Below, piece after piece: positions 5,209-59,495 of a DNA stretch of 64,000 nt. The position numbers and the translations under genes are program-made. Below the pieces are notes generated by a model. It was not told the DNA's origin and searched no databases. It saw only the letters and a program-made list of their open reading frames with translations. How positions within the stretch are numbered: the first letter of the stretch is position 1; each line of letters begins with the position of its first letter. This stretch comes from an uncultured Latescibacterota bacterium (GTDB lineage Bacteria > Latescibacterota > UBA2968), in contig OX638317.1 in NCBI GenBank assembly GCA_951812545.1, positions 5,843,014-5,907,013 on the forward strand, written 5' to 3'.

Positions 5209-5577
5209 ATGCGCTCATTTTATCGGGGACAAAGTACGGTGTTGCCGGAAAACAGTCCGATCTTACCGGGAAGTGCAAGGCGACGCCTGAATAAATTTTT
5301 GATATTTGCACCCGTGGTGCTTTCCCTATATTTGTTTTTTGTAGGAGACAGTGGGATTTTCCAACTCATAATGCGCAAGCAGCAAATTGCCGCATTGAAA
5401 CAGGAAATTTCAACTATTCGTCAGCAGAATGCCATGTTGGAACGCGAGGCAAAGCTGCTGGAAAACAATTTGGATGAGATTGAACGCATTGCTCGAGAGC
5501 GCTATGGCATGGTGTATCTCAATGAATCAATTTATATGATCTATCCCAATCCACCAACAGCATTGGAGTCACCGTGA
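5209..5577 (+). CDS. septum formation initiator family protein (FtsB/DivIC-like)
   Basis: 122 aa. One TM helix (FLIFAPVVLSLYLFFV) is followed by a heptad coiled coil (QQIAALKQEISTIRQQNAMLEREAKLLENNLDEIERIARERYG). Confidence 0.6.
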   Translation: MRSFYRGQSTVLPENSPILPGSARRRLNKFLIFAPVVLSLYLFFVGDSGIFQLIMRKQQIAALKQEISTIRQQNAMLEREAKLLENNLDEIERIARERYGMVYLNESIYMIYPNPPTALESP

Positions 5578-6359
5578 TTTGCCAGACCGATGGGTTGGTG
5601 TTGCGCGGTTTTCGCATGAGTGAAAGCAGCAAGGTTGTGGTGTTGTTTTCTCGCGATTACGGCAAGTTGCGTCTGGTTGCCAAAGGCGCGCGGCGGCCCA
5701 AAAGCAAATTTGGCGCGAGTCTTGAACCCATGACATGGGGGCACTATGTTTTTTATCGGCGGGATAATCGAGAGTTGCAAATATTGAGCGAAGGCGATAT
5801 TGCACACGCTTTTGAACCGATAAAACAACACTACGGTCGAATGGCAGCCGGAAGTGCGATATGCGAATTTCTGGATCATATTACCGAAGATGAAGACCGC
5901 AACCCACTTTTGTTTAGTATTGCACTTGAAACGATGCAATGGGTGGGGGGTATTGCTGAAATAGCACTGGATGTGCCGGTGTGGTATTTCCAGATTCGCG
6001 CTGCGGGTGCGGTGGGTTATCGCCCCCATCTGAGTGGGTGTGTCCAATGTGGTGCTCGGCTCCAGGGGCACCGCCTGGGGTTCAGTCCCGGCCTGGGCGG
6101 TACATTGTGTGGCAAGCACGCAGGGGCGGGCATGCGCGTACAGTTTGAGACGATAAATTTTATGGCGCATCTACAAGTGGGACGTCCCGACCGCATTGAT
6201 CTTTCCCTCTTGCGGGGTGTAAACCGCGCAGAGGTGACGCGAATATTGCGCGCATTTTTTGACCAACACATCGAATCGCGCTATCGCCCCAAGGCACTGG
6301 ATTTTTTTGAACGCTTAAGGGCAGCAGAACCTGCGGTGCCTTATGGCGCGGGGATATAG
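5574..6359 (+). CDS. recO: DNA repair protein RecO
   Basis: 261 aa. N-terminal OB region GLVLRGFRMSESSKVVVLFSRDYGKLRLVAKGARRPKSKF and a Cys4 zinc motif CVQCG...LCGKH. GTG start overlaps the upstream stop (GTGA). Confidence 0.8.
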   Translation: MICQTDGLVLRGFRMSESSKVVVLFSRDYGKLRLVAKGARRPKSKFGASLEPMTWGHYVFYRRDNRELQILSEGDIAHAFEPIKQHYGRMAAGSAICEFLDHITEDEDRNPLLFSIALETMQWVGGIAEIALDVPVWYFQIRAAGAVGYRPHLSGCVQCGARLQGHRLGFSPGLGGTLCGKHAGAGMRVQFETINFMAHLQVGRPDRIDLSLLRGVNRAEVTRILRAFFDQHIESRYRPKALDFFERLRAAEPAVPYGAGI

Positions 6360-55758: not shown

Positions 55759-56724
55759 ATGGCCCTTGCGATGACAGAGCAGCAAGAGAGAGATTTTGAT
55801 GAGAAGGGATTTATTGTTCTTGAGGATTTTTTTACTCAGGACGAGGTCAATCGGCTTTTGCTGGCTATTGATGAGGTGGCAGAGCGGATTCGAGAGGCCG
55901 AAGGCCTGGGACCTGATGATCCTTTTGCCGTGCGCAATGCCCTGTCGCAGCACGAGGCGTTTCTGGATTTGATCGATCATCCGCGCATGTTGCCTCTGGT
56001 GGTGGATGCGATTGGCTGGAATATTCAGATACGAACGACGCATCTGGACTATCGACCGCCATATCCCGAGGGTTTGAAAGCAGGCGATGTTGGCGTTGGC
56101 AAGGGCGAAGATCAGGAGATTGGGTACCGCAATGTGGCATGGCATCCCGATTTGGCGAGCGATATGTTGTTTCTGGGACCTTCGCTGGATGGGCGTCTCC
56201 CGTTTATGGAGATCAAGGTTTTTTACGTGCTTTACGATATGACCGAATCCAATTGTGGCAATCTGTGGTTGGTGCCGGGTAGTCACAAGCGCAAGCCTGA
56301 AGAGTTGCGAGAGATGGGACGCGAGGTCAATCCGGAAGAGGCGGTTGAGCTCAAGTTGCGGGCTGGTTCCGCGGTGTTGTGGCGAACCGCTGTTTGGCAC
56401 TGCGTGGGTCCCAATTTGTCGAGAAAAACGCGGAAGATTATGCATGTGGGGTATAATTACCGGTGGCTTCGTCCAACTGATTATATTGAGCAGGATACGG
56501 AACTCATTGAACGGAGTTCGCCAGTTCGGCGCCAGTTGTTGGGCGCGCTGGCATCGGGAAAAGATCCACTGGGACCAGAACCAGATTTTCACCCTTCGTC
56601 ACAATACTGGCTGACAAAGAATTGGGATGATGTCCCGTTGCGAGCTTGGGCAGAGGAACAAGAGACGAGTCAAAAGCAACCACATGTGAACGGCTATCGT
56701 AGTTGCACACCGGTTGTAAAGTAA
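55759..56724 (+). CDS. phytanoyl-CoA dioxygenase (PhyH) family protein
   Basis: Start moved to ATG 55759 behind AAAGGAGGGG (MALAMTEQQERDFDEKGFIVLEDFF). WHPD (His-x-Asp) and a later WHCVGPN His. Second PhyH-family gene in the window. Confidence 0.8.
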   Translation: MALAMTEQQERDFDEKGFIVLEDFFTQDEVNRLLLAIDEVAERIREAEGLGPDDPFAVRNALSQHEAFLDLIDHPRMLPLVVDAIGWNIQIRTTHLDYRPPYPEGLKAGDVGVGKGEDQEIGYRNVAWHPDLASDMLFLGPSLDGRLPFMEIKVFYVLYDMTESNCGNLWLVPGSHKRKPEELREMGREVNPEEAVELKLRAGSAVLWRTAVWHCVGPNLSRKTRKIMHVGYNYRWLRPTDYIEQDTELIERSSPVRRQLLGALASGKDPLGPEPDFHPSSQYWLTKNWDDVPLRAWAEEQETSQKQPHVNGYRSCTPVVK

Positions 56725-56785
56725 GAGGCAAGAGGTGTGAGTGTAGGGAAGTACTCCTGTGCATGCCCCAAGAGATAGGATTAGA

Positions 56786-58172
56786 ATGCAAAAATATCAA
56801 GCCGAAGTCTTATTGAGACGTGCTGTCGGTGATCCCAACGTCCGTTTTCGAACGGGTCAATGGGAAGCTATTGACGCGCTGGTTAACCACCGCCGCAAGT
56901 TGATGGTGGTACAGCGCACTGGCTGGGGCAAAAGCTCGGTTTACTTCATTGGTACGCGCATATTGCGTGATCAAGGGAGCGGAGTAACAGTGATTGTGTC
57001 CCCTCTGATTGCGCTGATGCGCAATCAGATCGAAGCGGCCAATCGACTTGGTATTCGTGCAGAGACGATCAATTCCACAAACCAGGATAATTGGCCTGAG
57101 GTCAGCCACGCTCTATTAGCCGACCAAGTTGATGCCATTCTGATTTCGCCTGAACGTCTCGCGAACGAGACATTTGTCGAGGAGGTTTTGATACCGGTAG
57201 CTGATCGCGTTGGCCGACCACGATGAATTATCTACATTTCAACTTCAGCAGTATCTCAATTTGAGGCATGGACAAATTGACAAAGTCTTGAAAATCCTCA
57301 GTGTTGAAAGCCCATCTCCTGTAATCAAACAGGGTAGCAAGTGGCGTCGGACACCTGTTCTATACCATATGGACCACGCACGGATTGAACGTTTGACACA
57401 GCAAAGAGAAATCGAGTGGCAAGAGGTCCAAGATTATATCGACACGGATGATTGTCTTATGGCTTATTTGAGAAATGCCCTTGATGATCGAGAAAACGAT
57501 AAGTGTGGTCGGTGTACTGTTTGTCTGGGTGAACCAGTTGTGGATATAGATATAGAACACTCTCTTGTCATTGATGCAACCCGGTTTTTGAGGCAGGCAG
57601 AGATGCCTTTCAAACCAAATAGACAGGTCGCTACTGGTGCGTTTCCCATATATGACTTTCGAGGCAACCTGCGGCCTGAACTTCAGGCATCAGAAGGGCG
57701 GATCTTATCGCGCTGGGGTGATGCTGGCTGGGGTCAACTGGTGTCCGCTGATAAGCATGCAGGTCGTTTTCGAGATGCGTTGGTGGAAGCTATGGCAGAT
57801 ATGATCAAGCTACGATGGCAACCAGATCCCACTCCGGAATGGGTGACTTGTGTTCCTTCATTCAGCCATCCTACACTGGTGCCGCACTTTGCACAGCGAC
57901 TTGCAACCCAGTTGCAATTGCCTTTTGTGGACGCCATTCATAAAATACAAAATAACGAACCGCAGAAAAATCAGCAGAACCGTTTCCATCAATGCCAAAA
58001 TCTGGATGGCGTGTTCGAAATTTCGGAAAATATTCCTGTAACACCTGTACTACTGGTGGACGATATAATAGATTCCGGATGGACGATGACCGTACTTGCT
58101 GCCTTGTTACGGCAGGCGGGGAGTGGGCCGGTCTTTCCGGTGGCATTAGCCTCGACGAGTGCGGGGGATTAA
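56786..58172 (+). pseudogene. RecQ-like helicase fused to ComF-type phosphoribosyltransferase domain, internally deleted
   Basis: ORF 1 has helicase motifs I/Ia (QRTGWGKSSVYF, VSPLIALMRNQ) and stops at 57226. ORF 2, from about 57210 in another frame, has a wHTH-like region, CGRCTVC and a PRTase loop VLLVDDIIDSGWT. The DEAH box and the whole helicase C lobe are absent. Confidence 0.65.
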
Positions 58173-59409
58173 ATGTCGGTATCACATAATACACAGGCGA
58201 TCTTGTTGCTGACGGCGCATTTTTCCAAAGCGAAAAATGAGGCGGTTAAACCGTTGACAATGAAAGAATGGGGGCGTTTTACATGGTGGCTTAGGAAGCG
58301 GTCACTGACCCCAGAGGACCTGATGACCGGGCGACTTGATGAACTCTTAAATGGGTGGTCAGACAAGACGATTACCATGGAGCGTGTCAAGGGCCTGATG
58401 CATCGCGGTTCAGCACTTGCGCTGGCTCTGGAGAAATGGTTCCGTGCGGGTCTATGGGTTATGACAAGATCGGATCCAGATTACCCGACGCGATTCAAGC
58501 AACGTCTGGGGATTGACTCACCTGCCGTCGTGTTTGGTTGTGGCAACAGAGCCTTACTCAATAGCGGTGGCTTGGCAGTGATAGGCTCTCGCAATGCAAC
58601 GGAAGAGAATTTGGCATATAGTCGTGATCTGGGTGCCCTGGCTGCGAGCACTGGTTATTCGGTTGTTTCGGGAGGTGCGAGAGGGGTTGATGAGGCATCT
58701 ATGCTTGGATCCCTCGAAGTAGAAGGCACTGTGATTGGTGCTTGCGGATAGCCTTATGAGAGCCTGCTCAGGTGTCAAGTATCGCAAACACTTAATGGCA
58801 AATAATCTCGTACTTATTTCGACTTTTTATCCCGAAGCTGGGTTCAACGTGGGCCATGCTATGCAGCGGAACAAGTACATTTATTGCCTTTCTGATGCCG
58901 CTCTGGTGGTTCACTCCGGTACAAAGGGCGGTACTTGGAGCGGCGCGATGGAAAATCTTAAGAAGCAATGGGTACCGCTTTGGGTAAAAAGGACTAACGA
59001 AAAAAGAGCCGGAAATGCAGCTATTGTCAGGGCTGGTGCAGCATGGGTACCGGAGAATATCAGGGACGTTGATCTCATAGCACGGTTTACGACAGATCGT
59101 AAAGAAAAATCTCCGCAACAAATGACGCTAACGAAATCGGATCAGTTCGTCCAAGTTGTTAAGGAGGATGCTAAGACATACTCTTCAGTCGAGGATATTG
59201 GATTCTATGATCTATTTCTCTTAAAAGCCCAAGTACTGTGCAAAGATGTCCCAAAGACTCGTGATGAGTTGTCTGAAGCATTGCAAGTTCGCAAGACCCA
59301 GATCGATATCTGGCTCAAGCAGGCCACCGACGATCAGAAATTGGAGAAATTGTCCAGACCGGTTCGTTATCAGTGGGTCAACTCGCAGCAAGGTGCGTTA
59401 TCCGTATAA
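58173..59409 (+). pseudogene. dprA: DNA processing protein DprA/Smf family, frameshifted
   Basis: GLAVIGSRNATEENLAYSRDLGALAASTGYSVVSGGARGVDEA...GTVIG, then a frame change near 58737 to VLADSL...HAMQRNKYIYCLSDAALVV. Restoring one base gives a continuous DprA Rossmann fold. A wHTH-like C-terminus follows. Confidence 0.7.
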
Positions 59410-59466
59410 AAAAATGAGATATACCACAGTAGAACTTTTTCCATTGCGTAGCTTTGATATAAACAG

Positions 59467-59495
59467 AAAACCCCAGAAGCCTGCTTCTGGGGTTT
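59467..59495. terminator. bidirectional terminator between dprA and the response regulator gene
   Basis: AAAA-CCCCAGAAGC-CT-GCTTCTGGGG-TTTG. Confidence 0.65.

What the first reader, a model, noticed from the sequence alone, without database searches (positions are those of the whole stretch)
56759..59409. Decayed operon: RecQ-type helicase fused to a ComF-like PRTase domain, followed by DprA, with both genes inactivated independently
Gene 1 starts like a RecQ helicase (motifs I and Ia). After ...FVEEVLIPVADRVG it jumps, with a frame change near 57205-57215, straight into a winged-helix-like region. It continues into a CxxC zinc element and a C-terminal phosphoribosyltransferase loop (VLLVDDIIDSGWT). 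The DEAH box and the entire second RecA lobe are missing, so roughly 250 aa appear deleted.

Gene 2 starts 1 nt after gene 1's stop. It is a full-length DprA (N-terminal helical domain, Rossmann/SLOG fold, C-terminal wHTH) broken by a 1-nt frameshift near 58737 (TVIG|VLADSL).

Established knowledge: in natural transformation, DprA works with the ComFA helicase and the PRTase-like ComFC. A RecQ-PRTase fusion next to DprA looks like an alternative ssDNA-handling or possibly defence-type module. I do not know it as a characterised system. Two separate lesions suggest it is being lost in this lineage.
Basis: partly seen in the sequence, partly recalled or inferred. Interest (0 to 1): 0.6.

Follow-up and report, generated by a model that had tools for sequence, protein, structure and literature searches.

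The report
Decayed PsyrTA (RqlHI) toxin-antitoxin pair
These are the broken remains of a known bacterial toxin-antitoxin and anti-phage gene pair (PsyrTA, also called RqlHI) in a probable sponge-symbiont bacterium, where a 710-base deletion recently disabled the toxin gene and a 2-base deletion the antidote gene; this is ordinary gene decay, not a new system.

Summary
Four ORFs at 56759-59409 are two broken genes.

PADLOC models identify them as PsyrT (model positions 3-144 and 376-688 of 689) and PsyrA (1-189 and 190-397 of 398). PsyrT is a RecQ-like helicase with a PRTase toxin domain. PsyrA is a DprA-like antitoxin. This is the characterised PsyrTA/RqlHI toxin-antitoxin and anti-phage system, not an unknown module and not a competence module.

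Five syntenic Candidatus Latescibacterota relatives (91-94% nt identity) carry the locus:
- Four have both genes intact (698 and 412 aa).
- One has a TGG>TAG nonsense codon in the toxin only.

Against these, the window has two lesions:
- An exact 710-nt deletion between two GTTGGC copies. It removes the helicase from the DEVH box (motif II) to past motif VI and shifts the frame.
- A 2-nt (GT) deletion in GGTGTG of psyrA.

An independent Logan assembly of the likely source run reproduces both lesions with no differences. Other runs at about 96-99% identity carry the intact forms.

The remnants have no further stops or indels. Window-specific codon changes are 34 synonymous to 15 nonsynonymous. 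The loss is therefore recent.

The toxin was probably lost first, but this is inferred, not shown. Interest is low.

The parts
56786..57214 (+). psyrT (rqlH) 5' remnant: codons 1-143, helicase motifs I and Ia only. The listed ORF 56759-57226 adds an upstream GTG and a 4-codon out-of-frame tail ending in TGA.
   Evidence: PADLOC PsyrT model positions 3-144 of 689, E = 7.8e-59. Pfam DEAD profile positions 3-107 of 167. tblastn with the intact L001 PsyrT gives query 1-143 at 96.5% identity.
57209..57214 (+). Deletion junction: the single surviving GTTGGC copy. 710 nt present in relatives are missing here (L013 5290-5999/6000-6005), which shifts the frame.
   Evidence: blastn break at 57213/57211 against locus 5294/6002. 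Junction sequences. GTTGGC at L013 5290 and 6000, 710 nt apart. The X1 contig 'skips 710', with 6 letters fitting both sides.
57216..58172 (+). psyrT 3' remnant: codons about 381-698 plus the TAA stop. It holds the RecQ-Zn/winged-helix region and an intact PRTase domain with the PRPP loop VLLVDDIIDSGWT. It is in a different frame from the 5' remnant.
   Evidence: PADLOC PsyrT positions 376-688 of 689, E = 4.1e-111. Pfam Pribosyltran 35.2 bits and RecQ_Zn_bind 21.7 bits. tblastn query 374-698 at 91% identity.
58173..58739 (+). psyrA (rqlI) 5' part: codons 1-189, the N-terminal helical domain and the first half of the DprA/SLOG Rossmann fold. The listed ORF runs on out of frame to a stop at 58751.
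   Evidence: PADLOC PsyrA positions 1-189 of 398, E = 3.5e-81. Pfam DNA_processg_A positions 4-103 of 212. tblastn query 1-189 at 95% identity.
58737..58740 (+). Site of the 2-nt (GT) deletion. Relatives read ATTGGTGTGCTT and the window reads ATTGGTGCTT. One unit of a short GT/TG repeat is lost, which causes the frameshift.
   Evidence: DNA alignment A1. Runs X2, X5 and X6 have 'GT put in behind 58737', whereas X1 does not.
58741..59409 (+). psyrA 3' part: codons 191-412 plus stop, the second half of the DprA fold and the C-terminal wHTH-like tail.
   Evidence: PADLOC PsyrA positions 190-397 of 398, E = 4.3e-71. Pfam DNA_processg_A positions 118-210 of 212. tblastn query 190-412 at 87% identity.
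59468..59495 (.). 12-bp-stem GC-rich hairpin between the convergent psyrA and response-regulator genes. It is a likely terminator for the operon end; the scan scored it on the minus strand.
   Evidence: Terminator-like site. Consensus match only.

Best explanation
The locus is a recently pseudogenised copy of the two-gene PsyrTA (RqlHI) toxin-antitoxin and anti-phage system.

**Intact form, seen at the same chromosomal site in close Latescibacterota relatives**
[quoted passage not shown] The PRTase domain is the toxic part.
- psyrA abuts psyrT and encodes a 412-aa DprA-like antitoxin that binds and restrains PsyrT.

**In the window's lineage**
- A 710-nt deletion between two 6-nt direct repeats (GTTGGC) removed helicase motifs II to VI and shifted the frame. 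This looks like replication slippage or microhomology-mediated deletion. The PRTase part is no longer translated as part of a helicase fusion.
- A 2-nt slippage deletion in GGTGTG cut the antitoxin in the middle of its Rossmann fold.

**Shown:** the identity of the genes, both lesions, intact alleles in near relatives, and the lack of further decay.

**Inferred:**
- The system is now non-functional.
- The toxin was disabled first, which made the antitoxin dispensable.
- The loss reflects relaxed need for this defence, or its cost, in this symbiont lineage.
For: - **Family identity:** PADLOC PsyrT and PsyrA models cover both genes except the deleted part, with E values from 1e-59 to 1e-111. Pfam domains agree.
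- **Intact relatives:** L001-L004 (Latescibacterota, 91-94% nt identity, same flanking genes) have uninterrupted 698-aa and 412-aa genes.
- **Deletion:** exactly 710 nt between GTTGGC copies.
- **Frameshift:** a GT deletion.
- **Not an assembler artefact:** the X1 Logan contig is identical over 2751 nt and no X1 contig covers the deleted segment. Runs X2, X5, X6 and X7 carry the intact forms.
- **Recency:** window-unique codon changes in the remnants are 34 synonymous to 15 nonsynonymous, no more nonsynonymous than in the intact relatives, and there are no extra stops or indels.
- **Conserved pairing:** a PsyrA gene lies directly downstream of PsyrT in 77 of 80 species-level loci. The other 3 end at a contig edge.
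- **Toxin-first order:**
  - L013 has TGG>TAG at codon 103 of psyrT with psyrA intact.
  - Ten loci have only the toxin broken and four have only the antitoxin broken.
  - A psyrA deletion mutant could not be transformed (Millman 2022).
  - A delta-rqlI strain suffers RqlH-dependent DNA stress (PMC4670107).
Against: - Only assembled contigs could be laid, at about 6x k-mer depth and probably from the same reads as the window. A minor intact allele in that sample cannot be excluded.
- The order of the two lesions is not observable. Four surveyed loci (L016, L051, L070, L080) have an apparently intact toxin with a broken antitoxin. Many bacteria carry RqlH without RqlI. Antitoxin loss first is therefore possible.
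- Whether the 320-aa Zn/WH-PRTase ORF (TTG at 57210) is translated was not tested. That exact fragment has no published toxicity test.
- No function was tested in this organism.
Confidence: 0.92

Rival explanations
1. Assembly or sequencing artefact. Under this reading the real genome has intact psyrT and psyrA, and the two lesions come from mis-assembly or low coverage.
For: Depth in the only run that holds the exact sequence is low, about 6.2 k-mer depth. That run is probably the window's own source, so it is not independent data. Intact alleles exist in strains of about 96-99% identity.
Against: - A different assembler (Logan) gives the same 2751 nt with 0 differences.
- A 6-nt repeat cannot make a k=31 assembler skip 710 nt.
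- No X1 contig covers the missing segment.
- A 2-nt indel outside a homopolymer is an unusual consensus error.
- Each lesion has a natural mutational signature: a microhomology deletion and dinucleotide slippage.
Confidence: 0.04
2. A remodelled but still working module. Under this reading the free Zn/WH-PRTase protein (ORF 57210-58172) and the N-terminal PsyrA fragment (1-189), or the separately started C-terminal fragment, are expressed and form a reduced toxin-antitoxin or defence pair.
For: - The PRTase domain and its PRPP loop are intact, and the remnants carry no further damage.
- In-frame TTG codons open both downstream ORFs.
- In E. coli, helicase-dead RqlH point mutants stay toxic.
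- Shigella sonnei has a PRTase part split from the helicase by an IS element.
Against: - The arrangement is unique to this one strain. All five close relatives, and the intact forms in four other runs, keep the fused genes.
- The psyrA break lies inside the Rossmann fold.
- The lack of further decay is explained equally well by the lesions being recent.
Confidence: 0.04
3. One reading: a competence-like or general ssDNA-handling module related to ComFA, ComFC and DprA, rather than a toxin-antitoxin or defence pair.
For: The domains resemble each other: helicase, PRTase and DprA-like protein. The solved relatives of PsyrA are DprA proteins and ShosA.
Against: - Both genes match the specific PsyrT and PsyrA models far better than the generic domain models.
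- The family has been shown experimentally to be a toxin-antitoxin pair and to defend against phage.
- The nearest solved structure to PsyrA is the ShosA antitoxin.
- No competence genes adjoin the locus.
Confidence: 0.02

Closest known systems
PsyrTA of Pseudomonas syringae / RqlH-RqlI of E. coli F11 (Sberro 2013; Russell & Mulvey 2015, PMC4670107; Millman 2022, bioRxiv 10.1101/2022.05.11.491447; PADLOC PDLC03928 and PDLC03927)
   Same: - Same two genes in the same order and abutting.
- The toxin is a RecQ-like helicase with a Zn/WH region and a C-terminal PRTase.
- The antitoxin is DprA-like with an N-terminal helical domain and a C-terminal HTH-like tail.
- Model coverage is end to end apart from the deleted segment.
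- Intact relatives have 698 and 412 aa, against about 690 and 400 aa in E. coli.
   Different: - Both genes are inactivated here (710-nt deletion, 2-nt deletion).
- The host is a Latescibacterota probable sponge symbiont.
- The locus is chromosomal, conserved in position, and sits among housekeeping genes, not in a defence island.
Toxin-dead, antitoxin-intact PsyrTA loci
   Same: The toxin gene of the same family has decayed through simple mutations: nonsense, frameshift or duplication.
   Different: In those cases the antitoxin is still whole. Here the antitoxin is broken too, which is a later stage of loss.
ShosTA (PRTase toxin ShosT plus DprA-like antitoxin ShosA; PMC11961720, PMC12961424; PDB 9vzo, 8zva)
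   Same: Sister system with a PRTase-domain toxin and a DprA-like antitoxin. ShosA is the closest solved structure to PsyrA. There are weaker PADLOC hits to ShosT and ShosA.
   Different: ShosT has no RecQ helicase domain. The scores to PsyrT and PsyrA are far higher (370 against 21 bits, and 271 against 52 bits).
Mycobacterium smegmatis RqlH (stand-alone RecQ-like helicase with PRTase, as described in PMC4670107)
   Same: Same helicase-PRTase fusion architecture.
   Different: It is found without an RqlI/PsyrA partner in Gram-positive bacteria. Here the partner gene is present.
Competence proteins ComFA, ComFC and DprA
   Same: The same kinds of domain: SF2 helicase, PRTase-like protein and DprA Rossmann fold.
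   Different: They are separate genes with a different family assignment. No link to transformation is shown for PsyrTA. This is a resemblance only.

Membership tests
PsyrTA / RqlHI toxin-antitoxin (anti-phage) system | The toxin gene matches the PsyrT family model over its full length. | tested here: not met
   The window matches PDLC03928 only at model positions 3-144 and 376-688 of 689, in two different frames. Positions about 145-375 are deleted. The ancestral form met this feature: L001 is 698 aa in one frame. The window copy is therefore a homologous pseudogene, not a functional member.
PsyrTA / RqlHI toxin-antitoxin (anti-phage) system | A RecQ-like SF2 helicase core with both RecA lobes (motifs I-VI). 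| tested here: not met
   Only motifs I and Ia remain (Pfam DEAD profile 3-107 of 167). DEVH, Helicase_C (L001 aa 239-340) and QQVGRAGR lie in the deleted 710 nt.
PsyrTA / RqlHI toxin-antitoxin (anti-phage) system | A C-terminal PRTase domain with a PRPP-binding acidic loop, the toxic domain (D663 region in E. coli RqlH). | tested here: met
   Pfam PF00156 at 35.2 bits, above the 26.3 cut-off. The loop VLLVDDIIDSGWT is present. The role of the domain in toxicity comes from PMC4670107.
PsyrTA / RqlHI toxin-antitoxin (anti-phage) system | A DprA-like antitoxin gene directly downstream on the same strand. | tested here: met
   The ATG at 58173 follows the TAA at 58170-58172. PDLC03927 is covered at positions 1-189 and 190-397 of 398, but the reading frame is broken by a 2-nt deletion. 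The pairing is conserved in 77 of 80 loci.
PsyrTA / RqlHI toxin-antitoxin (anti-phage) system | The toxin is toxic alone and is neutralised by the antitoxin, and the pair protects against phage. | not testable with these tools
   Known for E. coli and P. syringae homologues from the literature. Not tested for this lineage. Not expected for the broken copy.
Competence DprA (with ComFA/ComFC) | The best match is to canonical DprA rather than to a defence-type DprA-like family. | tested here: not met
   PsyrA model scores 271 + 238 bits, against 71 + 43 bits for Pfam DNA_processg_A. The closest solved chain is the ShosA antitoxin.
Competence DprA (with ComFA/ComFC) | A separate canonical dprA and comEC/comFA elsewhere in the genome, to show that this copy is the accessory one. 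| not tested
Within the 64-kb window there is no second copy of either gene.

The most novel reading that the evidence does not exclude
The frameshifting deletion may have freed a 320-aa Zn/winged-helix-PRTase protein (57210-58172) from its helicase. That protein might still be made from the in-frame TTG and act on its own, for example as a low-toxicity nucleotide-metabolism or defence effector that no longer needs PsyrA. The strain would then be a natural experiment separating the PRTase effector from its helicase sensor, not a dead locus.

A milder reading is more likely than not. The three states at one syntenic site (intact; toxin with a nonsense codon and antitoxin whole; both broken) record a toxin-first order of decay of a type IV toxin-antitoxin pair in symbiont lineages.
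Probability: 0.05. Interest if true: 0.4.

Novelty: already known. Interest (0 to 1): 0.15.

Why it matters
It matters little on its own. The finding corrects an apparent 'uncharacterised RecQ-PRTase-DprA module' to a known defence and toxin-antitoxin system, and shows that the copy is dead.

It has some value as a clean, dated example of how such systems are lost:
- Each lesion has a clear mutational signature: a 6-nt microhomology deletion and a dinucleotide slippage.
- Intact alleles exist in strains of about 96-99% identity.
- One sister species shows a possible intermediate stage, with only the toxin dead.

In a rough survey of 80 species-level loci, about 14% have a broken toxin and about 6% a broken antitoxin. 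This suggests that PsyrTA is often dismantled and that the toxin is usually hit first. The numbers need checking against assembly quality.

Tried and rejected
- **First protein search.** The search used only the 320-aa fragment. Its length filter excluded full-length proteins of about 690 aa and returned many truncated gene calls. The genome-contig scan was far more useful.
- **Programmed frameshift in psyrA.** Rejected: all five close relatives and three other runs have the uninterrupted frame.
- **Defence-island context.** Rejected: the neighbours are a PhyH-like dioxygenase, cysteine synthase, an OmpR-type regulator, gamma-glutamyltranspeptidase and a Cus-type metal efflux operon. There are no tRNA genes in the window.
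- **Relaxed selection on the remnants.** Looked for and not seen: 34 synonymous to 15 nonsynonymous window-unique changes.
- **Promoter scan.** It gave nothing above chance.
- **Structure prediction.** Not run, because the sequence-level family assignment was already decisive.
Full report
**1. Observation**

| ORF | Length | Pfam result |
|---|---|---|
| 56759-57226 | 155 aa | N-terminal part of a DEAD/DEAH helicase lobe (profile 3-107 of 167) |
| 57210-58172 | 320 aa | Weak RecQ zinc-binding match plus a PRTase domain above the gathering score (35.2 against 26.3 bits), with the loop VLLVDDIIDSGWT |
| 58173-58751 | 192 aa | First half of the DprA domain (profile 4-103 of 212) |
| 58735-59409 | 224 aa | Second half of the DprA domain (profile 118-210 of 212) |

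The description is therefore correct: a RecQ-like start, a jump with a frame change into a Zn/WH region and a PRTase, then a split DprA-like gene.

**2. What it is**

PADLOC family models identify the pair directly.
- ORF1 matches PsyrT model positions 3-144 of 689 (E = 7.8e-59).
- ORF2 matches PsyrT positions 376-688 (E = 4.1e-111).
- ORF3 matches PsyrA positions 1-189 of 398 (E = 3.5e-81).
- ORF4 matches PsyrA positions 190-397 (E = 4.3e-71).

Matches to the sister system ShosTA and to DpdF helicases are much weaker.

PsyrTA is the same system as RqlHI.
- It was found as a toxin-antitoxin pair by shotgun cloning (Sberro 2013, cited).
- It was dissected in E. coli F11 (Russell & Mulvey 2015, PMC4670107).
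- It was shown to protect against phages (Millman 2022 preprint).

Its guess of a defence-type module is right.

**3. Relatives and the ancestral state**

A scan of species-representative genomes found 80 loci. The five closest are Candidatus Latescibacterota MAGs (L001-L004 and L013). They share 91-94% nucleotide identity with the window across the genes and both flanks: the PhyH-like dioxygenase gene upstream and the response-regulator gene downstream. The system therefore sits at a conserved chromosomal site in this lineage.

- In L001-L004 both genes are uninterrupted: PsyrT is 698 aa from the MQKYQ start and PsyrA is 412 aa.
- The intact PsyrT has DEAD, Helicase_C and Pribosyltran domains. 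The intact PsyrA has one full DprA domain.
- The solved relatives are RecQ, BLM and similar helicases for the helicase part. For PsyrA they are ShosA (9vzo, 8zva) and DprA proteins.
- Across all 80 loci a PsyrA-like gene follows PsyrT directly in 77. The other three end at a contig edge.

**4. The two lesions**

*(a) Toxin gene.* The window aligns to the relatives up to 57213 (locus 5294) and resumes at 57211 (locus 6002).
- In L013 the hexamer GTTGGC occurs at 5290 and at 6000, exactly 710 nt apart. The window keeps one copy at 57209-57214.
- 710 is not a multiple of three, which explains the frame change.
- The lost segment is residues about 144-380 of 698. It starts just before the DEVH box and ends after QQVGRAGR (motif VI), so it takes out all of Helicase_C.
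- A deletion between short direct repeats is the signature of replication slippage or microhomology-mediated deletion. This is an inference from established knowledge.

*(b) Antitoxin gene.* All five relatives read ATTGGTGTGCTT (I G V L). The window reads ATTGGTGCTT. One GT of a short GT/TG run is lost. It cuts PsyrA at residue 189/190, in the middle of the Rossmann fold.

**5. Are the lesions real?**

- Run X1 holds 100% of the sampled words and is probably the source sample. Its Logan contig (2894 nt, k-mer depth 6.2) matches 56700-59450 with 0 differences and 0 gaps.
- Laid on the intact relative L013, the same contig 'skips 710' from 5289 to 6000, with 6 letters that fit both sides. No other X1 contig covers the missing part.
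- Runs X2, X5, X6 and X7 come from other samples. One (X5) carries the same organism label as X1. At about 96-99% identity over these stretches, their contigs carry the 710 nt and the extra GT.

The lesions are therefore reproduced by a second assembler and are strain-specific. Two caveats apply: only contigs were available, not reads, and depth is low. I put the artefact reading at about 4%.

**6. Age of the lesions**

The remnants have no further stops or indels. Codon changes unique to the window number 34 synonymous and 15 nonsynonymous over the four segments. The intact relatives' own unique changes are, if anything, more nonsynonymous, for example 32/24 for L003 and 20/16 for L013. Most of the window's private divergence was thus accumulated under purifying selection, so the inactivation is recent. 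This fits the intact alleles seen in near-identical strains.

**7. How it worked, and the likely order of loss**

From the literature on homologues:
- The PRTase domain is required for RqlH toxicity (SOS induction, filamentation).
- RqlI binds RqlH and neutralises it.
- The PRTase domain alone is not sufficient for toxicity.
- Helicase-dead point mutants remain toxic.
- RqlI 1-250 is only partly active.
- A psyrA deletion mutant could not be obtained.

On that basis the window's pieces are most likely inert. These pieces are a 143-residue helicase stub, an untethered Zn/WH-PRTase ORF without an obvious expression signal, and a 189-residue PsyrA stub. This is an inference.

The toxin was probably hit first, which released the antitoxin from selection. 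Support for this order:
- L013 shows such a stage at the same site: TGG>TAG at codon 103 of psyrT, unique to L013, with psyrA intact.
- In the 80-locus survey, ten loci have only the toxin broken, four have only the antitoxin broken, and one has both broken.
- Earlier scan notes describe toxin-dead, antitoxin-intact copies in E. coli. These are leads only and were not checked here.

Evidence against a strict order:
- Four loci have a broken antitoxin and an apparently whole toxin. One of them is the isolate Pantoea rodasii LMG 26273 (L051).
- Many bacteria carry RqlH without RqlI.

I hold toxin-first at roughly 70%.

**8. Context**

The neighbours are a Cus-type metal efflux operon, a PF03601 membrane protein, cysteine synthase, a PhyH-like dioxygenase, an OmpR-type regulator, gamma-glutamyltranspeptidase and an enolase-superfamily enzyme. 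There are no tRNA genes and no second copy of either gene in the window. It is neither a defence island nor a competence locus.

**9. Limits**

The whole genome could not be searched for a canonical dprA, competence genes or a second PsyrTA.
- The survey of broken copies mixes isolates, short-read MAGs and long-read MAGs. Some breaks may be assembly errors.

**10. Verdict**

This is a real, correctly described pair of lesions in a known system, PsyrTA/RqlHI. It is ordinary, recent pseudogenisation. Interest is low and the system is already known.

Noticed in passing
L013:5173-5175 (Latescibacterota MAG JAJEAX010000379.1): In this sister species psyrT carries a TGG>TAG nonsense codon at codon 103 while psyrA is intact. 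The window, four other relatives and runs X1, X5 and X7 all read TGG/G at this site. It is an independent inactivation of the toxin only, at the same syntenic locus.
   Followed up: yes
L016, L051 (Pantoea rodasii LMG 26273), L070, L080: In these loci PsyrT reads as one open frame but the PsyrA gene is frameshifted or stopped. This is the reverse of the expected toxin-first decay. The possible causes are assembly errors, silent toxin inactivation, or tolerance of an unguarded PsyrT.
   Followed up: partly
L044 and L080 (same MAG, MFD05537.bin.2.84): One genome carries two PsyrTA copies on different contigs. One is heavily decayed in both genes (6 stops and frameshifts). The other has a whole toxin frame and a frameshifted antitoxin.
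   Followed up: no
one search hit list (for example P0008, P0043, P0024): Many database proteins that match the PsyrT C-terminus are only 350-555 aa long yet lie on long contigs (up to 581 kb). This suggests frequent truncated or split PsyrT gene calls. The search's length filter also selected for such proteins.
   Followed up: no
window 59468-59495: A 12-bp-stem GC-rich hairpin (AAACCCCAGAAGC...GCTTCTGGGGTTT) lies between the convergent psyrA and response-regulator genes. It is a plausible bidirectional terminator.
   Followed up: partly
L009 (OZ253560.1) 1870-2762 against window 55759-56651: A more distant relative (72-77% nt identity) also has the PhyH-like dioxygenase gene upstream of PsyrTA, but with about 2.1 kb more DNA between them. 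The PhyH-PsyrTA linkage therefore extends beyond the closest clade.
   Followed up: no
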